Shown here in pieces: positions 12,709 to 26,926 of a stretch of 36,209 nt of DNA; the stretch's first letter is position 1; the number at the start of each line of letters is the position of its first letter. The notes beneath the pieces are model-generated. The model made no database searches and was not told the origin of the DNA. It saw only the letters and a list, made by a program, of their open reading frames with translations. The position numbers and the translations under genes are program-made. This DNA is from Promethearchaeota archaeon (lineage in GTDB: Archaea; Asgardarchaeota; Lokiarchaeia; Sigyniarchaeales; SOKP01). Location of the stretch: assembly GCA_048938895.1 (NCBI GenBank), contig JBHLLU010000039.1, positions 1 to 36,209 of the forward strand, in the 5' to 3' direction.

Positions 12709-14223
12709 TTGAATGTAAAAGGAGTACAAAAACCAAGGCAGATTTATGAGAGATATAGAAAGGGTGAACTTGATACAAATTCTATAGTTGAGATTTTCAA
12801 ATCTATAATTGAAGAAGATACCGTTTTATTAAAACGGATACGCGCTATTGAATTTTTAGGCGAAATTAAACCTTATAGCAATAAATTATATGGAGTTCTC
12901 GAATATTGTATAATTTCAGATGTAAACCCTGAAATAAGATTAGCTGCGATCAAAGCAATAATTAACAACTATTTAGAACTCGGATTCGAATCAGTAAGAT
13001 GGGTTATTTCCCATGATAATTCTAATTTAGTTATGATGAATATCTTCGAATTACTAAAGCATAAGACTGATGTAACTTCAAAAGTATTACAAGAAGAAAT
13101 ACTTCAGAGATTTTCTAATATTTTTCAAGTAGTACCTCTCGAGGCAAAATTTTTTATTGATTTGTTTAATGCCTTAAATCAAATCGAAGAGAATTTAGAT
13201 CTTAATATCAATTATACACACAAATTCTCTTTCAAGAATGCTTCACTGCATCATTGTAATGCTGGATTCTATGCGCCTATAATAATCAGTGTCAGAAATA
13301 AACATGCCTATGCTTTAATGTTGGGCGGATTTAAACTAAAAGAATTACCCAAATCTATTTCCTTATTAAAAAAATTGAGATTTCTTACTCTATACAATAC
13401 AGATTTACATCATTTACCTAAGTCTATTCAAAATTTGAAAAACTTATCCTGTTTAAAATTAGCAAGAAACAACTTTAAAAAATTACCAAAGTCTATTTCT
13501 AAATTGGGAAAACTTAGATCTTTAATTTTGAATGAAGAATCCTTGAAGTATATACCAAATCGGATTGGGAAACTTCATAGATTATCTTTTCTTCAGGATT
13601 TATCTGGTAAAATAAGAAAAATTCCAAATTCATTAATAAACATATCAAACCAGAAATTTCTTAAAAGATATATAGATTTAGGAGTTGACAAAACTGAGGC
13701 TCCAATACTGGGTTTATTAGAGCTTCTTAGTGATATCCCCTTAGAAAAAATTGAGTTCTTTGAGGATGAGTTTGATTCAGAAAAATTTGATCCAATCAAT
13801 TCTATGCATTGTTTTAAATTAAATGAGAAAGGTAATATAATTAGACTTTACTTTTATTCTTACCATTATCCATTGGTTTGGATATTACCTAAACAAATAG
13901 ATTTATTACAACATATTAAATGGATATGTCTCTACAATAATACCATTCCACAAATACCTAAAAAAATAGGGAAACTTAAATCACTTGAAATAATGGATTT
14001 ATCAAAAAATTCTATAAAGAAAATACCACTAGCTATTAAAAAGTTAAAGAATTTACAAAATTTGGATCTTTCTATAAATCAAATTAAAAAAATACCGAGA
14101 TTTTTGAAAAATAATCCCATACTAAAGAAGATCGATTTGCTCAGTAATCCTGTATGTAAGAGTAGAAAATTAAATTCCAATTCTCCTGCTAAATTTTCTT
14201 CCTACAAATCCAGCTATAGTTAA
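12709..14223 (+). CDS. Leucine-rich repeat protein with N-terminal HEAT-like repeats
   Basis: HEAT-like segments KRIRAIEFLG and EIRLAAIKAI. Two blocks of about 23-aa LRRs (LKELPKSISLLKKLRFLTL; IPKKIGKLKSLEIMDLSKNSI). TTG start. Confidence 0.9.
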   Translation: MNVKGVQKPRQIYERYRKGELDTNSIVEIFKSIIEEDTVLLKRIRAIEFLGEIKPYSNKLYGVLEYCIISDVNPEIRLAAIKAIINNYLELGFESVRWVISHDNSNLVMMNIFELLKHKTDVTSKVLQEEILQRFSNIFQVVPLEAKFFIDLFNALNQIEENLDLNINYTHKFSFKNASLHHCNAGFYAPIIISVRNKHAYALMLGGFKLKELPKSISLLKKLRFLTLYNTDLHHLPKSIQNLKNLSCLKLARNNFKKLPKSISKLGKLRSLILNEESLKYIPNRIGKLHRLSFLQDLSGKIRKIPNSLINISNQKFLKRYIDLGVDKTEAPILGLLELLSDIPLEKIEFFEDEFDSEKFDPINSMHCFKLNEKGNIIRLYFYSYHYPLVWILPKQIDLLQHIKWICLYNNTIPQIPKKIGKLKSLEIMDLSKNSIKKIPLAIKKLKNLQNLDLSINQIKKIPRFLKNNPILKKIDLLSNPVCKSRKLNSNSPAKFSSYKSSYS

Positions 14224-14299: not shown

Positions 14300-14863
14300 T
14301 TAACCTGTAGTGCGTAAAAAGAATTTTTTTTCAGCTTTATATGGAGGATAAGAAAATAATTCAACGTGGGATATCCTTGCTATGAAAGGTTTTGTGATCT
14401 GTAAATCAAGATAATTTTGGGAAATTTCCACTGCTTTGGAGATGTCTTGGGTTGGAAGGTCTAGTAGTAGGGTTATATGTGGACTCCACATACTATCTGT
14501 TATTTGATCCAAAACAATCCCTTGGTTTTCTAATGTCTCTAAACAAAGCTTTCTTAAAGATTGAAGATTGCTTGAATATTTAGGATTAAGATAAAAAACT
14601 TGGGTTGCAGGAAAGGTAGTTAAACCAGTAAATTCTAGTGAGAAGGAGTAAAATGTAGAAATTGCAGATTCCAAGGCATCATAATATTGTTGTTTTCTTA
14701 ATTCTTTATGTTCAAATAATGTAATGTGGGGTGGCACTAGCACATATGTATGACCATGCAGATCAGGGGAATTATTTAAAATTTTCTGTAATTCTTTCAA
14801 CTTTTTAGCCGATTTTTCATCAAAACAAACAATGATTCCAGTCCAAAAATCCATGATTCTCAA
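14300..14863 (-). CDS. 2H phosphoesterase (2'-5' RNA ligase family)
   Basis: Two HxT motifs, PPHITL and SPHITL. Confidence 0.85.
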   Translation of the reverse strand: MRIMDFWTGIIVCFDEKSAKKLKELQKILNNSPDLHGHTYVLVPPHITLFEHKELRKQQYYDALESAISTFYSFSLEFTGLTTFPATQVFYLNPKYSSNLQSLRKLCLETLENQGIVLDQITDSMWSPHITLLLDLPTQDISKAVEISQNYLDLQITKPFIARISHVELFSYPPYKAEKKFFLRTTG

Positions 14864-20035: not shown

Positions 20036-20154
20036 AAATCTTGTTTATCAATAAAGTAAAAAATTTTATATCGAACTGACTGTATATTAATCAATCACAT
20101 TATTCGATGCTTAGAGTCGAAAAAGAGCATAATTGATTTTATAATTGAACCTAA

Positions 20155-23100
20155 ATGACCTCAATAGAAAGTGAAGAGTTACTACTAGAAAAGGCGAGAG
20201 TAGAGGAAGAAAAATTCAATTGGAATGAAGCAGCAAAGTTATATGAAAAGGTCTTAAAATTTTATTTAGATAAAAATCTAGACGAAAAAGCTGCAAGTTG
20301 TTATAAAAATCTTGGATATTATTATAGAAGAGCGGCTGATACTGTGGACACCGATGAAGAGTTTTTAGAACAGATTAAATCTGCTGTTAAAGCATATAAG
20401 GAAGCAATGAATCTCTTTAAGATACAAGCAAATAGATCTGAGGAATTAGAATGCAAGGCAGAAATAAATTGTGCAAATGGGTCTCTTGCAACATCTGATA
20501 GGGAAGCTAAGGGGGAGCTTTACCAGGCTTATAAGTTTTTTAGTGAATCAAGTAAAAATTATTCCATTGAGGACAATCAAGAGAGTTTAGCGAGAGTATT
20601 ATGTCGAGCAGCAAATGCAATATTATTCCTTACATTCTATAATATCGATAAGGAAGAGATGAGGCGCATCGGTCAAGAGGGGAAAGATTTTGCTAAAAAG
20701 GCTTGGGAAATTTCAAGAAAGATAGACAATCTACAGATTTTGGCTGATTCGTTAAATAGGGAATTAATGATTAATTTCAATGCAATAGAAACAATTATAG
20801 ATTTTAAAAAAGACGAGGGATACAAGGAATATAAAGAGAGCATTTTATTAAAGTGCGATGAAAGCATTACACTCATTGAGAACAGTGATGATTCATATGC
20901 TCTCATGCAGGTTTATATGGTAGCAGGTGCTTCTTATTGTTCCTTTGCTTATCAATTCATTGAAGATGAGAAGGAGCAAGATGAAATTCTTGATAAAGGG
21001 ATGAATTTACTAGAAAGAGCCTTGATGGCTGCTAAAAAAACGAAATCAAAATCAGAAATAATTACATGCCTTTTTTTTATAAATTATTTTGCCCTTTATA
21101 GTAATCGAATTAATTATTTACAGAAAAGAATTCTCAATGACATCAAAGAGAGTTTAGAATATGGAAAGATTTATACTTATCCCTATAATATATATAGTTC
21201 CATGTCAAATGTTTTGCCTGCACTTTATTTCTCTAATTCCTCCCAAAGAAGCTTTTTTACTAGAGCGCAACGTAAAACTTACGCTGAAAAAGGAATCCAA
21301 TACACAAAAGAAGCAATGAATGGACCTCATGTTCCTGGTGTTATGGCATGGTTATACCAAGGTTTGGTATTAGCTTATTCTCAACTTACTATTCTCTCGG
21401 ATTCAAAAGCAAAACAGGGAGAAAATGCTCAACTTTTGCTTCAATATGCAAACCAGGCAGAAAAATTCGGCTTAAAATATGATGGAGGGTTTCCTCGAGC
21501 GGGGGGTTATACATGTCTTTATAAAGCTCATAAAACTCTTGCAGACATCACTGAAAAAAGAGAAGAAAGGATTTACCACCTTAAGGAAGCCATCAATGCT
21601 CAAAAAAAATCAACAGATTATGCAATTTTATCTCGAACAGGTACGCTTACAGAAAAAATGAGACTTGGATTGTTATTTGAAGAATTAGGTATTATAACAA
21701 GGGAATCCTCTGATTTGAATCAAGCAAGGGAAATTTTTCTCCTCACAATAAAAGATAGCGTCGATAGAAAATACTTTTCATATGAAGCAGCTAGTTATCA
21801 ATATTTAGCTCGTATAGAAGATCGTTTAGGTAATTACATGGTTTCTGCTGAAAACTACAACCAGGCTCAACAAGCATATGATAAGTCATTAAAAATGATA
21901 AAATACAAATTATTAAAGAATAGGATTATCGAGAAATCTAATTATGTCCGAGCATGGGCCTATATTGAAGAGGCTAAATCATATCATAATCGTGAAAATC
22001 ACAAACAATCTAAGGAACGTTATAAGAAGGCTTATGATATATTAAAAGATTTAGGAAGTTATGCTTATGAGGCATCATATTATTCTGGATGGATATCCTT
22101 AGAGGAAGCAGAACAACTAAGTAAACAAGAGAGGCATGAAGAAGCAATAGAAAGCTTTAAAAAGACAGGAATAATATTTGAAGGAGCTATTAAAACATTA
22201 ATTAAATCCCAAGAGCGATCAAGCGATAAATTTGATAAAGAGAGAATCATTAAATTTGAAAAAGTAGCTCAGGTAAGGGTGAATCATTGTAGGGCAAGAA
22301 TAAATCTTGAAGAAGCAAGGATCTTAGGAAAGCAGGGGGAACATATTGCCGCTGCAGAAAAATTCGCTCTTGCATCTTCACAATTCAGAGATATTTGTAT
22401 TTTATTTAGAATTAAACGAGAGAGAGAGGAATTAGAAGCGGTATATTATCTTTGCAGAGCATGGGAAAATATGGAACTTGCTGAAGAATATAGGGACCCA
22501 AAAAGGTTTTCTGATGCTGCAGAATTATTTGTAGATGCAAGTAAACGGTTCACTGATACAAAATTAAAATTATTAGCTACTGGAAATTCGACTTTTTGTT
22601 TAGCTCTTGAATATGGATGTAAATTTGATGAAACTATTGAAATAAATCTTAAAAAGGAATTATATCCAAAAGTTAAACTGATGCTCAGTAAAGCAGCTAA
22701 CTCTTATCAGGATGGAGGATTTGAAAGTGCTGCTGACTGGGCACAAGCTACCTCTATTTATTTTGATGCTGCATGGCAACTAATTAAGGCTGATGAAGAA
22801 ACAGATCTTCAGGAAAAAGGAAAACTTTTAAGAATAGGTGCTAAGTATTTAAAATCTGCAGTTGAATTATTTGGAAAAGCTGGTTATAAAGATAAGACGA
22901 GAGAAGTTCAAGATCGATTAAATAGAGTTGAAAAGGAAGAATCAATTCTTATTTCTGCTTTAAGCACCATAAAAGAACCCACAATCTCTCGAAGCACTAT
23001 GGGGATTTTTGCTCCCTCTTGCCCACTTGAAAGTAGTCAATCTCCTCGATTAAGCGAAGCCCGTCAGTTTAGCGAAGAGGAACGACGAAGTCAGAAAGAG

Positions 23101-23991
23101 ACAAAAGAAGGAAAGAAATATCAATTAATCTATAAAGATTTGTTTAAGGAATACATTAAAGTCCAAAAACGGGAATGCAGAGTTGGTATTGCCCAAATAG
23201 GAGTTTCTGAGAAGTTAAATATTATGAAAGAGCTATTTGAAATGAAATCGGCTGGTCTTTTAGGCATAAAGGAGGAAAAAATTGAAGAATTAAAATCTAA
23301 GATTAAAATTATGGTTGAAAATGCGCATAATGAAAGAGTTAATATTTTACTTTTCCCAGAAATGACAATAGATCTTAACTACGGTGAAATTTTTGAAGAA
23401 ATAGCAGATTTATCCAAATTGTATGGGATGCTTATTATCCCAGGTTCGTTCCATGATCAAGGTACCAAACGAAATATTAGTAAGGTTTTTGCTCCCGAAG
23501 GGATACTTTGGGAGCAGGAAAAGCATATCCCAGCAATTATTAGTACTGGGGAGGGAGAACGTTTTAAAGAGGGAATAGAAGTTGGGAATTTTCCCCATAC
23601 TACAATTATATGTAACACCGAATATGGGAGAATTGCAATCGCAATTTGTAGGGATTTTCTTGACATGGATCTAAGAGTAGAATTGAAAAATTTTGAACCC
23701 CCCGTAGATATTATATTAAACCCTGCCTTTACTCCAGTTACAGTGGATTTTAATGCTGCCCATTTCGATGCACGAAGATCAATCTATGCATACTGTTTTT
23801 TCGCCAATGTTGCTGAATTTGGTAATTCATTCATACATACTCCAGAGAAGGATAGAACGGAGAGAGTTTTAAAAGCTAAAGAGGAAGGACTAATTTTTAA
23901 GGATATTGATATATTTAAATTACGTTCAGAACGCAAAAGGTGGGAGAAGGAACAGAAAAAGGAAAGATTATTCATCCAAAGTACTCGTTAA
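20155..23991 (+). CDS. Large TPR-like helical-repeat protein with a C-terminal carbon-nitrogen hydrolase (nitrilase-fold) domain
   Basis: About 940 aa of A/Y/E/K-rich helical repeats, then a Ser/Pro linker, then RVGIAQ, LLFPEM (E1069), QEKHIP (K1123), GRIAIAICRDF (C1165) and FFANV. Confidence 0.85.
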   Translation: MTSIESEELLLEKARVEEEKFNWNEAAKLYEKVLKFYLDKNLDEKAASCYKNLGYYYRRAADTVDTDEEFLEQIKSAVKAYKEAMNLFKIQANRSEELECKAEINCANGSLATSDREAKGELYQAYKFFSESSKNYSIEDNQESLARVLCRAANAILFLTFYNIDKEEMRRIGQEGKDFAKKAWEISRKIDNLQILADSLNRELMINFNAIETIIDFKKDEGYKEYKESILLKCDESITLIENSDDSYALMQVYMVAGASYCSFAYQFIEDEKEQDEILDKGMNLLERALMAAKKTKSKSEIITCLFFINYFALYSNRINYLQKRILNDIKESLEYGKIYTYPYNIYSSMSNVLPALYFSNSSQRSFFTRAQRKTYAEKGIQYTKEAMNGPHVPGVMAWLYQGLVLAYSQLTILSDSKAKQGENAQLLLQYANQAEKFGLKYDGGFPRAGGYTCLYKAHKTLADITEKREERIYHLKEAINAQKKSTDYAILSRTGTLTEKMRLGLLFEELGIITRESSDLNQAREIFLLTIKDSVDRKYFSYEAASYQYLARIEDRLGNYMVSAENYNQAQQAYDKSLKMIKYKLLKNRIIEKSNYVRAWAYIEEAKSYHNRENHKQSKERYKKAYDILKDLGSYAYEASYYSGWISLEEAEQLSKQERHEEAIESFKKTGIIFEGAIKTLIKSQERSSDKFDKERIIKFEKVAQVRVNHCRARINLEEARILGKQGEHIAAAEKFALASSQFRDICILFRIKREREELEAVYYLCRAWENMELAEEYRDPKRFSDAAELFVDASKRFTDTKLKLLATGNSTFCLALEYGCKFDETIEINLKKELYPKVKLMLSKAANSYQDGGFESAADWAQATSIYFDAAWQLIKADEETDLQEKGKLLRIGAKYLKSAVELFGKAGYKDKTREVQDRLNRVEKEESILISALSTIKEPTISRSTMGIFAPSCPLESSQSPRLSEARQFSEEERRSQKETKEGKKYQLIYKDLFKEYIKVQKRECRVGIAQIGVSEKLNIMKELFEMKSAGLLGIKEEKIEELKSKIKIMVENAHNERVNILLFPEMTIDLNYGEIFEEIADLSKLYGMLIIPGSFHDQGTKRNISKVFAPEGILWEQEKHIPAIISTGEGERFKEGIEVGNFPHTTIICNTEYGRIAIAICRDFLDMDLRVELKNFEPPVDIILNPAFTPVTVDFNAAHFDARRSIYAYCFFANVAEFGNSFIHTPEKDRTERVLKAKEEGLIFKDIDIFKLRSERKRWEKEQKKERLFIQSTR

Positions 23992-25520: not shown

Positions 25521-26072
25521 TTAACTCTCAGAAGCTTTTGATTTTTCTTCTGCTTTTTTTTGTTTAGCTTGCTTTTTTGCTAATTTAACATCCCCAAAGG
25601 AAGGAGTGAATTTTGAGCCTTTTATGGGTAATATACAGGTTGCGTCTAGTTTTTCAGATCCTCTAGAAGCAACCATTGATGTTTTTTGCTTAAAGTGTAG
25701 TTCTAAGTGCCATTTATCATAAATTTCATCTTCCTTTCCCTTCCCTTTTTTTTTTTGCCATGTTGGTAATTTAATCTTAAAAGGATATTCTTTTGTTTCA
25801 CCTGTTTTCAGTTTCTCACCTGAGGCAATATCCCATTGCTTCAATTCCCTCTTTTGATCTCTCCAAGATTCAGTTTCTTCTCCAGTTTCAAGGTCTTTAG
25901 TGGTAACTAGTTCTTTATACATATCAAATAATTCAATATACAGGCTTTTTAACTTTTTATCCTTTTTCTCTCCATTTGATATTATGATCTTTCCTTCAAT
26001 TTCATCATTGGATTTAACAATCAGCGGTGGATCTTTTATCTCATATGCTACATGAACCTTTGTTCCAACCAT
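25521..26072 (-). CDS. Hypothetical protein with an arrestin-N/Spo0M-like beta-sandwich and Lys-rich tail
   Basis: NDEIEGKIII, LKSLYIEL and LKTGETKEYPFKIKLP resemble the arrestin-N pattern. SD GGTGT and a TTTATAAA element lie upstream. Confidence 0.55.
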   Translation of the reverse strand: MVGTKVHVAYEIKDPPLIVKSNDEIEGKIIISNGEKKDKKLKSLYIELFDMYKELVTTKDLETGEETESWRDQKRELKQWDIASGEKLKTGETKEYPFKIKLPTWQKKKGKGKEDEIYDKWHLELHFKQKTSMVASRGSEKLDATCILPIKGSKFTPSFGDVKLAKKQAKQKKAEEKSKASES

Positions 26073-26185: not shown

Positions 26186-26926
26186 TTATTTTGAATTTTT
26201 TTTGAGTATTTCTGCTACTTTGGCTACATTTTTATCCATTTTAGGTCCTTTCTTGATAATTATGGTAACATCCATGTCAGATACTTTTTCTTTCCCTTTT
26301 TTATCGGTGAAAGGAACATCTACTTTATACTTAATAACACCTTTTTTAATCTTCTTCTCTTCAATGTCATAATTGTCTTTAATTGGATAAATGTGACCAT
26401 AATTCAAGATATTAGATGCTTCCATATCAGCTGCCACAGATTTAGCGATTGAATCAGATACTGACTTGTGGACAGCATAGGATCCGAGTCTAATAAATTC
26501 TAAGCCCATTCCACTTAATCTCGCTTGTTTAATTTCTTTCTTTCCTGAAGCAATAATTCTGAAATTCGATATGTAAAGCATGCCAGTAATTTCCGAATTA
26601 CCATCTTGGAGCCATCCCTCTGCAATTACCTTAAATTCTTCACCGGGAAGCTTACAAAAGTTCTTAATGAAATGTTTTTCAAAATCAACCAATTTTGGTC
26701 CGTATCTCGCTGAAGCCATGAACATAAATCCTTTATATATTTTATCATTGAATTGCTCCACATCAGCTTCGATAATAGCTTTGAAAATCTCACCCATCGC
26801 ATCATATTCATCGGGTACAAGCTTTTTAAATCCCCCTAATAGCTTCTTTACAACATTTCCGTGCTTTTTATTAGCAATAAGTTCTAAAACTTCATCTTTA
26901 AGAGCTGAATAATCAGTTGGTGCCAT
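26186..26926 (-). CDS. Hypothetical protein with helical N-terminus and GRAM/PH-like domain
   Basis: LPGEEF...ITGMLYISNFRII resembles the GRAM/bacterial-PH pattern LPGE...G.LY.TN.R. SD GAGGT lies upstream. Confidence 0.5.
   Translation of the reverse strand: MAPTDYSALKDEVLELIANKKHGNVVKKLLGGFKKLVPDEYDAMGEIFKAIIEADVEQFNDKIYKGFMFMASARYGPKLVDFEKHFIKNFCKLPGEEFKVIAEGWLQDGNSEITGMLYISNFRIIASGKKEIKQARLSGMGLEFIRLGSYAVHKSVSDSIAKSVAADMEASNILNYGHIYPIKDNYDIEEKKIKKGVIKYKVDVPFTDKKGKEKVSDMDVTIIIKKGPKMDKNVAKVAEILKKNSK

What the first reader, a model, noticed from the sequence alone, without database searches (positions are those of the whole stretch)
20155..23991. Giant TPR-like solenoid fused to a nitrilase-fold domain with an intact catalytic triad
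Seen: about 940 aa of helical repeats (e.g. WNEAAKLYEKVL, SAENYNQAQQAY, AAEKFALASSQF), a low-complexity linker (aa ~940-990), then a C-N hydrolase domain with E1069, K1123 and C1165. There is no TM or signal peptide. Established: nitrilase-superfamily enzymes are usually ~270-aa stand-alone proteins or fused to NAD synthetase or Lnt. Divergent nitrilase domains also occur in anti-phage reverse-transcriptase systems (DRT1-type), and TPR arrays act as sensors in prokaryotic immune proteins. Inference: a one-component sensor-effector or a scaffold-targeted protein/nucleotide deamidase, possibly one of a family with swappable C-terminal effectors. This is the best candidate here for an undescribed system.
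Basis: partly seen in the sequence, partly recalled or inferred. Interest (0 to 1): 0.75.

Follow-up and report, generated by a model that had tools for sequence, protein, structure and literature searches.

The report
Asgard TPR solenoid with defence-type nitrilase
This gene encodes a giant helical-repeat protein ending in a nitrilase enzyme, and it belongs to a large, apparently undescribed archaeal family that swaps that end for other enzymes such as TIR.

Summary
ORF 20155-23991 (+) encodes 1278 aa. It has a confidently modelled all-alpha TPR-like solenoid (aa 1-940, pLDDT 93.5), a linker, and a nitrilase-fold domain with invariant E1069/K1123/E1139/C1165. The same ~940-aa module carries nitrilase, TIR, metallophosphoesterase, Zn-ribbon-like or roadblock-like ends in Asgard archaea. 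In a distant branch (one named member is Bathyarchaeia) it carries an Ig-like domain, alone or followed by wHTH-like, KaiC-like, cyclase, AAA or DUF835 domains.

The nitrilase is closest to defence-associated nitrilases: CARF-nitrilase, UG5 and DRT1 profiles matched 50 of 50 family members. Curated metabolic models did not match. The only plasmid relatives are Sinorhizobium UG5 RT-nitrilases.

Three findings are new. Thirteen of 36 related loci hold tandem paralogues. The "low-complexity" linker is a conserved motif. A conserved promoter/operator-like element lies upstream.

Best reading (about 0.5): an NTPase-free sensor-effector whose nitrilase is switched on by oligomerisation. Against an immune role are the housekeeping neighbours, strong conservation, and absence from the plasmid and phage collections. 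I found no paper describing the family. Function is untested.

The parts
20064..20154 (+). Conserved upstream non-coding element. It comprises a TATA-like box (20064-20071), a core motif with short inverted arms (20081-20095), a second conserved block (20114-20122), and a Shine-Dalgarno-like TGAxCC (20144-20151) before the ATG. It is a candidate promoter plus operator shared by family genes.
   Evidence: 18 upstream regions align at 77% mean column identity. The core regex matches 21 times in 505.7 kb. Of these, 19 lie within 130 nt upstream of family starts and 1 lies upstream of the 825-aa TPR-nitrilase gene. There is no Rfam match and no supported RNA structure. The sequence was read.
20155..23991 (+). 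Whole gene, 1278 aa plus the stop codon.
20155..21654 (+). N-terminal half of the solenoid (aa 1-500). This is the more variable part and the candidate ligand-recognition region. The first helices (A14, W23, A26, Y30) are nearly invariant family-wide.
   Evidence: Conservation is 0.47-0.69 per 30-aa block, lowest at aa 150-260. Many distant relatives match best only from aa ~500 onward.
21655..22974 (+). C-terminal half of the solenoid (aa 501-940). This is the conserved core of the family module.
   Evidence: Conservation is 0.59-0.86. Most nearly invariant columns lie at aa 552-914. AF2 pLDDT is above 90 over most of it. Structural neighbours are long TPR scaffolds: Ctr9, IFT-A TPR subunits and Ski3, at TM 0.2-0.35.
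22975..23079 (+). Conserved linker motif (aa 941-975, core aa 947-968). It is kept in front of nitrilase, TIR, metallophosphoesterase, Zn-ribbon-like and roadblock-like ends.
23080..23154 (+). Variable charged spacer (aa ~976-1000).
   Evidence: alignment excerpt
23155..23988 (+). Nitrilase-superfamily (C-N hydrolase) domain, aa ~1001-1278.
   Evidence: Pfam, PADLOC, model, Foldseek.
23359..23361 (+). Codon of E1069 (catalytic Glu, FPE motif).
23521..23523 (+). Codon of K1123 (catalytic Lys).
23569..23571 (+). Codon of E1139, an invariant second Glu and candidate fourth member of a catalytic tetrad.
   Evidence: Invariant in 50 of 50. The tetrad assignment is inferred from recalled knowledge of the superfamily.
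23647..23649 (+). Codon of C1165 (nucleophile, CRD motif). It aligns with C1116 of DRT1.
   Evidence: C1116 is named in PMC13275509
23911..23988 (+). C-terminal helix (aa 1253-1270) and the last six residues (aa 1273-1278). Four of the six are invariant and two are at least 90% conserved. This tail is a candidate lid acting in trans on a neighbouring protomer.
   Evidence: I, Q, S, T invariant; F and R at least 90%. (helix 269-286 of the model; tail pLDDT below 50 in the monomer). (the alignment runs to residue 1224 of 1229 in DRT1). DRT1 lid role: passages of PMC13275509.

Best explanation
The gene encodes a one-polypeptide, NTPase-free sensor-effector of an Asgard archaeon. A 940-aa TPR-like solenoid acts as the input module. 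Its variable N-terminal half is the likely recognition surface. Its conserved C-terminal half, together with a conserved linker motif, couples it to the output. The output is a nitrilase-fold hydrolase of the kind used as an effector in bacterial anti-phage systems (DRT1, UG5/DRT11, CARF-nitrilase). I propose that the enzyme is held inactive in the monomer. It is switched on when ligand binding drives the solenoids to associate and brings the nitrilase domains into the oligomer that this superfamily needs for activity. The invariant extreme C-terminal tail then completes or gates the neighbouring active site. The Cys1165-Glu1069-Lys1123(-Glu1139) centre would hydrolyse an amide or nitrile-type C-N bond of an essential small molecule or protein side chain, so growth stops. 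Paralogues carrying TIR or a metallophosphoesterase on the same module would work the same way with another chemistry.

Shown: the architecture, fold, catalytic residues, effector swapping, kinship with defence nitrilases, tandem paralogues and a shared upstream element.

Inferred: sensing, activation by oligomerisation, the lid role of the tail, the substrate, and an immune or conflict role.
For: Architecture and fold.

Catalytic residues are invariant in 50 of 50 domains, and the last six residues are invariant or nearly so.

The same N-module carries many different ends. Among 114 representative tails there were 8 nitrilase (plus 1 Ig+nitrilase), 6 TIR, 2 Metallophos, 3 Zn-ribbon-like, 3 roadblock-like, 49 Ig-like only, 20 Ig+wHTH-like, 13 KaiC-like (12 of them after an Ig-like domain), 1 each of cyclase, AAA and DUF835, and 6 unclassified.

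TIR-bearing members sit at two separate places in the N-module tree, next to nitrilase-bearing clades (SH-aLRT 100 and 95, quick tree). They lie in tandem with nitrilase paralogues (L015, L021). The same nitrilase, at 69-70% identity, is also fused to an ordinary MalT-like TPR in an 825-aa protein.

Kinship with defence nitrilases: all 50 of 50 family domains match the PADLOC CARF_nitrilase (best E 9.9e-19), RTasNitrilase (2.3e-17) and RT_UG5-nitrilase (2.5e-16) models, and 34 of 50 match Drt1a. NCBIfam, which holds curated metabolic amidase and nitrilase models, gives 0 matches at E<=0.01. The generic Pfam model gives only E 3.5e-5. tblastn against 72,556 plasmids finds 3 records, all Sinorhizobium meliloti. 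The hit ORF examined, in H1, is a UG5 RT-nitrilase (1016.9 bits), 25% identical over 218 aa with E, K and C in register. A profile of the C-terminal half finds DRT1 (9yfd) first in the PDB, at E 0.0017 against 0.25 for the next hit.

From papers (passages read): in DRT1 the nitrilase is the effector, needs tetramer assembly, and is gated by a conserved C-terminal tail acting in trans. The catalytic Cys mutant abolishes defence in the UG5 system.

TIR tails keep a conserved Glu in 7 of 7 sequences. That this is the catalytic position is recalled, not tested.
Against: The context is not that of a typical defence gene. The window carries metabolic genes on both sides: HxlR, ferredoxin and AFOR upstream, and an acyltransferase downstream, with nothing mobile. 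In 36 related loci the recurrent neighbours are housekeeping genes: H+-pyrophosphatase in 5 loci, a methyltransferase in 5, TauE in 4, acetyl-CoA synthetase in 4, UbiA in 4.

The family is strongly conserved, with near-constant length. The best 120 hits are 52-97% identical, and 113 of them are 1260-1294 aa. Paralogue clades are each shared by several Asgard lineages. That looks more like stable cellular machinery than a fast-turnover, patchy defence gene.

Neither the N-module nor the whole protein matches anything in 72,556 plasmids or 50,697 phage records.

The wider family carries outputs that are not toxic effectors: wHTH-like, KaiC-like, DUF835, roadblock-like and Ig-like only. This points to signalling in general.

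The PADLOC library holds only defence models, so a higher score there is not a phylogeny. No tree against metabolic nitrilases was built. No ligand, oligomer or activity was tested here.
Confidence: 0.5

Rival explanations
1. It is a non-immune signal-transduction protein. The solenoid is a sensory or scaffolding input module of a broad archaeal 'one-component' family. The nitrilase is a regulated metabolic or signalling output, for example controlled removal or production of a small amide, or deamidation of a partner protein. It responds to a physiological cue and not to a virus.
For: Most family representatives carry regulatory-looking outputs. Of 114 tails, 49 are Ig-like only, 20 Ig+wHTH-like, 13 KaiC-like, and 1 each cyclase, AAA and DUF835. 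A roadblock/longin-like end occurs in the Asgard branch (a lead at score 0.90-0.92). Neighbours are housekeeping genes. Orthologue conservation is strong. The shared promoter/operator-like element suggests a regulon.
Against: The Asgard-branch ends that alternate with the nitrilase include TIR and a metallophosphoesterase. The nitrilase itself is nearest to effectors of proven anti-phage systems. The DRT1 paper states that class 3 UG/Abi reverse transcriptases likewise carry either a nitrilase or a phosphohydrolase domain (passage).
Confidence: 0.3
2. It is a structural assembly. The tandem paralogues co-assemble through their nitrilase domains into a large hetero-oligomeric solenoid complex, a scaffold of Asgard cell biology. 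In this reading the nitrilase fold serves mainly as an oligomerisation core.
For: Tandem same-strand paralogues occur in 13 of 36 loci, up to 4 in a row. The clade order recurs between genomes. The nearest structural neighbours of the solenoid are eukaryotic scaffold subunits: Ctr9, IFT-A and Ski3. Nitrilases are obligate oligomers (passage of PMC13275509).
Against: The catalytic E, K, E and C are invariant in 50 of 50 domains, which argues for catalysis and against a dead scaffold. The structural matches have low TM (0.2-0.35) and are generic for long TPR superhelices. Many genes of the window's own clade stand alone, as this one does.
Confidence: 0.13
3. It is an ordinary metabolic amidase that was fused by chance or by assembly error to a repeat protein.
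For: Pfam CN_hydrolase is only just above its cut-off. The top structural matches are metabolic enzymes such as Nit2 and beta-ureidopropionase.
Against: The fusion recurs at constant length in hundreds of independent contigs. There are 0 NCBIfam matches. The domain is closest to defence nitrilases.
Confidence: 0.02

Closest known systems
DRT1 (UG1) and UG5-large/DRT11 reverse transcriptase-nitrilase anti-phage proteins
   Same: Both are large single polypeptides ending in a divergent nitrilase domain with an intact catalytic centre, followed by a C-terminal helix and short tail. Profile similarity holds for all 50 of 50 family domains. BLASTP to a Sinorhizobium UG5 protein gives E 1e-9. DRT1 is the top PDB match for the C-terminal half. 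DRT1 also has an alpha-helical repeat domain between the RT and the nitrilase (passage).
   Different: There is no reverse transcriptase: Pfam and PADLOC find none in aa 1-1000, and the model of aa 1-940 is all helical. The input module is a 940-aa TPR-like solenoid. The host is an archaeon. No DNA synthesis step can be involved.
CARF-nitrilase fusions (type III CRISPR ancillary candidates; PADLOC model CARF_m7--CARF_nitrilase)
   Same: A sensor domain is fused to the same kind of nitrilase. This gave the best PADLOC E-value among family members (9.9e-19, 50 of 50).
   Different: The sensor here is a solenoid and not a CARF nucleotide-binding domain. The match covers only the nitrilase part of the model (positions 211-395 of 457). 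As far as I recall, CARF-nitrilase function has not been tested.
STAND/NLR-like prokaryotic immune proteins with TPR sensors and swappable effectors (Avs-type)
   Same: The logic is the same: a long repeat sensor plus exchangeable effector domains, including TIR, with activation expected through oligomerisation. Gene families are expanded.
   Different: No NTPase domain is present: there is no P-loop family in Pfam and no alpha/beta domain in the model. The effector is C-terminal to the repeats. The comparison with Avs rests on recalled knowledge.
Long eukaryotic TPR scaffolds (Ctr9 of Paf1C, IFT-A TPR subunits, Ski3)
   Same: These are the best structural matches of the N-module (E 4e-10 to 1e-8). 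They are similar in size and have an all-TPR-like superhelix.
   Different: TM-scores are only 0.2-0.35 and identity is 10-14%. This is a generic solenoid likeness and gives no evidence of orthology.
Canonical nitrilase-superfamily enzymes (Nit2, beta-ureidopropionase, archaeal amidase PH0642)
   Same: The fold and the Glu-Lys-Cys centre.
   Different: Sequence similarity is marginal (best PDB E 4.1e-4 with a family profile). There is no NCBIfam match. The domain is fused behind a giant solenoid and has an invariant C-terminal tail.

Membership tests
Nitrilase superfamily (Pfam CN_hydrolase, PF00795) | Sequence match at or above the curated gathering score | tested here: met
   23.7 bits against a cut-off of 23.2 for the window protein. 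Relatives score 27.2 and 28.7 bits.
Nitrilase superfamily (Pfam CN_hydrolase, PF00795) | Alpha-beta-beta-alpha sandwich fold | tested here: met
   AF2 model with pLDDT 80.8 and pTM 0.86. 213 PDB matches at E<=0.001; those listed are all nitrilase-superfamily entries, the top one being 2w1v at TM 0.64.
Nitrilase superfamily (Pfam CN_hydrolase, PF00795) | Catalytic Glu-Lys-Cys triad (plus a second Glu) | tested here: met
   E1069, K1123, E1139 and C1165 are present and invariant in 50 of 50. The geometry was not inspected.
Defence-associated nitrilase group (DRT1/UG1, UG5, UG6-associated, CARF-nitrilase) | Specific profile similarity to the defence nitrilase models, and not to metabolic models | tested here: met
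   50 of 50 match three PADLOC nitrilase models at E down to 1e-18. There are 0 NCBIfam matches. The only plasmid hits are in 3 S. meliloti records, and the one examined (H1) is a UG5 RT-nitrilase. No phylogeny was made.
Defence-associated nitrilase group (DRT1/UG1, UG5, UG6-associated, CARF-nitrilase) | Fusion to, or adjacency with, a UG/Abi reverse transcriptase or a CARF domain | tested here: not met
   No RT or CARF was found in the protein or its neighbours.
Defence-associated nitrilase group (DRT1/UG1, UG5, UG6-associated, CARF-nitrilase) | Conserved C-terminal tail that gates the neighbouring active site in an oligomer | tested here: inconclusive
   The tail is invariant or nearly so. 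The alignment with DRT1 reaches residue 1224 of 1229.
Defence-associated nitrilase group (DRT1/UG1, UG5, UG6-associated, CARF-nitrilase) | Protection against viruses that depends on the catalytic Cys | not testable with these tools
   This needs an experiment.
Tetratricopeptide repeat proteins (Pfam TPR clan) | Sequence match to a TPR model above the cut-off | tested here: not met
   TPR_12 scores 23.3 bits against a cut-off of 30.1. Some relatives do pass, for example P0128 at 61.9 bits.
Tetratricopeptide repeat proteins (Pfam TPR clan) | Superhelix of paired antiparallel helices | tested here: met
   38 helices with no strands. The best structural matches are TPR scaffolds.
STAND / NLR-like immune NTPases (Avs-type) | Central P-loop NTPase (NACHT / NB-ARC / STAND) domain | tested here: not met
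   No such Pfam or PADLOC match, and the model is all helical.
SNAP (PF14938) and MIT (PF04212) domains | Match above the curated cut-off | tested here: not met
   Only sub-threshold or borderline hits in relatives: SNAP 19.6-27.9 bits against 25, and MIT 22.7-25.3 bits against 30. None was found in the window protein at E<=0.01.

The most novel reading that the evidence does not exclude
This is one member of a previously undescribed, NTPase-free class of innate-immune receptors in the archaeal relatives of eukaryotes. Giant TPR solenoids, encoded in tandem clusters like NLR gene clusters and under a shared operator, each recognise a different invader-derived ligand. They fire by oligomerising an exchangeable C-terminal enzyme (nitrilase, TIR or metallophosphoesterase). 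The family's wider distribution (Bathyarchaeia, with wHTH-like, KaiC-like or cyclase outputs) would make the solenoid a general archaeal sensor module that Asgard archaea recruited for immunity.
Probability: 0.35. Interest if true: 0.85.

Novelty: new variant of a known kind. Interest (0 to 1): 0.72.

Why it matters
Nitrilase effectors are among the least understood parts of prokaryotic immunity, and the substrate is unknown even for DRT1. This family offers the same kind of nitrilase without a reverse transcriptase, coupled to a simple repeat sensor. It sits beside TIR-bearing paralogues built on the same chassis, so it is a natural comparison set for asking how such effectors are switched on and what they hydrolyse.

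The family is abundant in Asgard archaea. There were 717 clusters at 90% identity with E<=1e-3 among the 8000 candidates scored, with several paralogues per genome. Yet it is absent from PADLOC apart from its nitrilase part, from Pfam as a family, and from the papers I could search. If it is immune, it adds a receptor class to the lineage from which eukaryotes arose. If it is not, it defines a large new archaeal signalling module with at least eleven kinds of output.

Tried and rejected
1. Complex prediction with two copies of the nitrilase domain (alignment A2) was never run. The queue was full, and the tool was declared unavailable. Oligomerisation therefore rests on what is known of the superfamily.

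2. The single-sequence PDB search of the C-terminal part gave only noise-level hits, for example Cas12f at E 0.0017 over the charged C-terminal helix. I rejected these as compositional.

3. The ESM Atlas search of aa 1-940 gave only generic TPR clusters below 0.9, which was uninformative.

4. The search for stand-alone relatives of the nitrilase (161-515 aa) returned 194 hits.

5. Organism names for the distant Ig-like branch: two cluster look-ups and one homology search gave a single named member, from Candidatus Bathyarchaeia. The range of that branch is therefore unknown.

6. Structured-RNA reading of the conserved upstream element: there was no Rfam match, a consensus fold of only -2.6 kcal/mol, and 0 compensatory changes in 11 pairs. 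I rejected it in favour of a DNA-level promoter/operator.

7. A conserved operon partner: of the 97 neighbour ORFs examined (two on each side of each array), none recurs in more than 5 loci, so none is claimed.

8. The careful tree of N-modules did not finish in 288 s, so only the quick tree (SH-aLRT) is used. The nitrilase-domain FastTree was read without support values and is a lead only.

10. I did not open the supplements of the Asgard defensome papers. They may list candidate systems that include this family.

Full report
**What is there.** The ORF at 20155-23991 on the + strand is real and 1278 aa long. The window has about 32% G+C. The best relatives of the protein are named by their depositors as Promethearchaeota, Loki-, Thor-, Hermod-, Hod-, Heimdall- and Odinarchaeota MAGs. 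The source is therefore an Asgard archaeon. The gene has its own 153-bp AT-rich upstream spacer and a 185-bp downstream spacer.

**The N-terminal module.** With a 61-sequence alignment, AlphaFold2 models aa 1-940 at mean pLDDT 93.5 and pTM 0.85, as 38 helices and no strand.
- Foldseek against the PDB returns long TPR scaffolds first: Ctr9, IFT-A TPR subunits and Ski3. E-values are 4e-10 to 1e-8, but TM-scores are only 0.2-0.35 and identity is 10-14%. This is a generic long TPR-like superhelix and not an orthologue of any of them.
- Pfam gives only a sub-threshold TPR_12 hit. No NTPase or other embedded domain is seen.
- There is no membrane-like segment.

**The C-terminal domain.** Pfam CN_hydrolase matches aa 1039-1256 just above its cut-off.
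- The AF2 model (pLDDT 80.8, pTM 0.86) matches solved nitrilase-superfamily enzymes. The top hit is Nit2 2w1v at E 6.3e-13 and TM 0.64.
Together with E1139 they are invariant in 50 of 50 aligned family domains.
- The domain ends in a helix (aa 1253-1270) and a six-residue tail. In those 50 sequences four of the six are invariant and two are at least 90% conserved. In the monomer model the tail has pLDDT below 50.

**Which nitrilase.** By sequence the domain is far from every solved metabolic enzyme. The best PDB E-value with a family profile is 4.1e-4. It matches none of the NCBIfam models at E<=0.01. The evidence that it belongs with defence nitrilases is as follows.
- All 50 of 50 family domains match three PADLOC nitrilase-bearing models: CARF_nitrilase (best E 9.9e-19), RTasNitrilase (2.3e-17) and RT_UG5-nitrilase (2.5e-16). 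Drt1a is matched by 34 of 50.
- tblastn of the domain against 72,556 plasmid records finds only 3 records, all Sinorhizobium meliloti.
- The hit ORF examined, in H1 (S. meliloti Rm41 pRM41A), is a 1005-aa UG5 RT-nitrilase (PADLOC 1016.9 bits). It aligns at 25% identity over 218 aa (E 1e-9) with the Glu, Lys and Cys motifs in register.
- A profile of the C-terminal half of the domain finds DRT1 (9yfd) first in the PDB. Its E-value is 0.0017, against 0.25 for the next hit. The family Cys aligns with DRT1 C1116, and the alignment runs to residue 1224 of 1229.

The caveat is that PADLOC holds only defence models and I built no tree against metabolic branches.

**What the papers say about such nitrilases.** I read passages only.
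- In DRT1 the nitrilase is the effector. It is active only in a tetramer held together by the nitrilase domains. It is gated by conserved C-terminal residues that cover the active site of a neighbouring protomer. Its substrate is unknown (PMC13275509).
- In the Sinorhizobium UG5 system the catalytic Cys mutant abolishes protection (PMC13436386).
- Class 3 UG/Abi reverse transcriptases carry either a nitrilase or a phosphohydrolase (PMC13275509).

**The family.** A search with the full protein gave 717 clusters at E<=1e-3 among the 8000 candidates scored. The best 120 are 52-97% identical, and 113 of these 120 are 1260-1294 aa long. A search with aa 1-940 alone over 1.84 billion representatives gave 522 at E<=1e-3 and 276 at E<=1e-30.

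In 114 of the best 150 the module is complete at its C-terminal end and a tail of at least 60 aa follows. By seed-based classification, with Pfam confirmation of examples, the tails are:

| Tail type | Count |
|---|---|
| Ig-like only | 49 |
| Ig-like + wHTH-like | 20 |
| KaiC-like (12 of them after an Ig-like domain) | 13 |
| Nitrilase | 8 |
| Ig-like + nitrilase | 1 |
| TIR | 6 |
| Zn-ribbon-like | 3 |
| Roadblock-like | 3 |
| Metallophosphoesterase | 2 |
| Cyclase | 1 |
| AAA | 1 |
| DUF835 | 1 |
| Unclassified | 6 |

The roadblock/longin assignment is only an Atlas lead (0.90-0.92). The Ig-like branch is 25-32% identical to the query. The only named member I could find is from Candidatus Bathyarchaeia. 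The same nitrilase (69-70% identity) is also found behind an ordinary MalT-like TPR in an 825-aa protein (L030, L032, L033).

**Paralogues and arrays.** Thirteen of 36 related loci hold two or more family ORFs in tandem on one strand, up to four (L029). In L035 the three ORFs are pieces of broken genes. Spacers of 133-140 bp occur at 10 of 17 junctions. A quick ML tree of 37 N-modules shows at least six well-supported paralogue clades. Each holds genes from several Asgard lineages, and the clade order recurs in arrays. The window's gene sits in a 12-member clade (SH-aLRT 100). Two TIR-bearing genes (L015:4440, L021:9127) branch at two different places next to nitrilase-bearing clades and lie in the same arrays. 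The end has therefore been exchanged more than once. TIR tails keep a conserved Glu in 7 of 7 sequences.

**Conservation pattern.** Over 129 full-length Asgard-type members:
- The N-terminal half of the solenoid is the least conserved (0.47-0.69 per 30-aa block, lowest at aa 150-260).
- The C-terminal half (aa 720-940) scores 0.74-0.86.
- The linker block aa 931-960 scores 0.80.
- The nitrilase scores 0.66-0.89.

The linker motif (core aa 947-968) is kept in front of nitrilase, TIR, metallophosphoesterase, Zn-ribbon-like and roadblock-like ends. It is therefore a functional element and not a spacer. It could be a peptide that docks on the solenoid, or a processing or modification site. I could not test either idea.

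**Context.** The window carries ordinary metabolic genes. Nothing mobile or defence-like lies next to the gene. In the related loci the recurrent neighbours are H+-pyrophosphatase (5 loci), a methyltransferase (5), TauE (4), acetyl-CoA synthetase (4), UbiA (4) and a JAB/MPN protein (4). None is shared by more than 5 loci. Neither the module nor the whole protein matches the plasmid or phage collections. This argues against a mobile defence island.

**Upstream element.** The 108 nt before the ATG of 18 family genes, including the window's, align at 77% mean column identity. That is higher than the proteins they precede. The element has a TATA-like box, a core with short inverted arms, a second block and an SD-like TGAxCC.
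- A regex for the core matches 21 times in 505.7 kb of loci plus window. Of these, 19 lie within 130 nt upstream of family starts (19 of 42 complete starts), and one more lies 88 nt upstream of the 825-aa TPR-nitrilase gene. The motif was derived from these same sequences, so only its rarity elsewhere is informative.
- There is no Rfam match and no supported RNA fold.
- I read it as a shared promoter plus operator, which would imply common regulation.

**Interpretation.** The pattern is one conserved input module, a conserved coupling segment, and exchangeable enzymatic ends. Two of those ends (TIR and this nitrilase type) are known elsewhere as oligomerisation-activated immune effectors. This is the design of a sensor-effector protein, here without the NTPase that STAND/NLR-type proteins use.

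The most likely mechanism is ligand-driven association of solenoids that assembles the nitrilase oligomer, with the invariant tail acting across protomers as in DRT1. The substrate is unknown.

Against an immune role stand the housekeeping context, the slow evolution and the regulatory outputs of the wider family. A non-immune signalling role is therefore a serious rival (0.3 against 0.5).

**Novelty.** No paper in the searchable library combines Asgard, nitrilase and TPR in this sense. One search returned 1 paper, which is not about this. Searches returned 0. The main texts of three Asgard papers (two on defence systems, one on structural modelling) mention neither nitrilase nor TPR. One of them lists 'RTnitrilase-Tm' only as a system excluded from a figure. 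Their supplements were not opened. Pfam, NCBIfam and PADLOC have no model of the N-module. I rate it a new variant of a known kind: a sensor-effector fusion with a known effector type on a new, NTPase-free sensor chassis.

Noticed in passing
window 20064-20154; also L001-L033 upstream of family genes: A conserved ~100-nt non-coding element lies upstream of family genes and of the 825-aa TPR-nitrilase gene. It has a TATA-like box, a core with inverted arms, a second block and an SD-like site. It is more conserved than the proteins it precedes. No RNA structure is supported, so it is a candidate shared operator.
   Followed up: partly
L029 3937-19745; L017 2504-14270; L021 1224-12418; L011 3951-14023: Tandem same-strand arrays of 3-4 paralogues of ~1275 aa, with spacers mostly 133-140 bp. 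The order of paralogue clades recurs between genomes. Some arrays mix nitrilase and TIR ends.
   Followed up: partly
L030 1631-4108, L032 6268-8745, L033 6420-8897: An 825-aa protein has an ordinary MalT-like TPR region fused to the same nitrilase domain (69-70% identity). In L033 it is followed by a gene of the solenoid family.
   Followed up: partly
L013 (DATKTW010000007.1) versus L019: A contig labelled Candidatus Nanopelagicaceae bacterium (Actinomycetota) carries a family gene almost identical to one in a Promethearchaeota MAG (tree branch lengths 0.006), with the same neighbours. It is probably a mis-binned Asgard contig and not a transfer.
   Followed up: no
L015 2296-3695, L017 498-1897, L020 2147-3546, L036 3027-4429: A JAB/MPN-domain protein (163-166 aa) lies next to a ~291-296-aa protein on the opposite strand, just upstream of arrays in 4 loci. 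The larger proteins of L015, L020 and L036 form one cluster, and the one scanned has no Pfam match. Any link to the family is unknown.
   Followed up: no
L035 8055-12388 (CP070831.1): Here the family genes are in pieces: a 139-aa nitrilase end, then ORFs of 151 aa and 1100 aa that together cover one gene. This could be a frameshift, a stop or a sequencing error. It was not examined.
   Followed up: no
window 12709-14223 (+) and 14300-14863 (-): A 504-aa leucine-rich-repeat protein (LRR_14, E 8e-27) lies next to a 2H/LigT-like phosphoesterase (2_5_RNA_ligase2, E 2e-14).
   Followed up: no
window 25521-26072 (-) and 26186-26926 (-): A 183-aa ORF has sub-threshold Spo0M/arrestin-N-like hits. A 246-aa ORF has no Pfam family and a weak PADLOC NsnC hit (E 5.6e-4). 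Both are unexplained.
   Followed up: no
aa 1-40 of the family (window 20155-20274): The first helices are nearly invariant across the whole family (A14, W23, A26, Y30). In relatives they give sub-threshold MIT and SNAP hits. This could be a conserved capping or docking unit.
   Followed up: no
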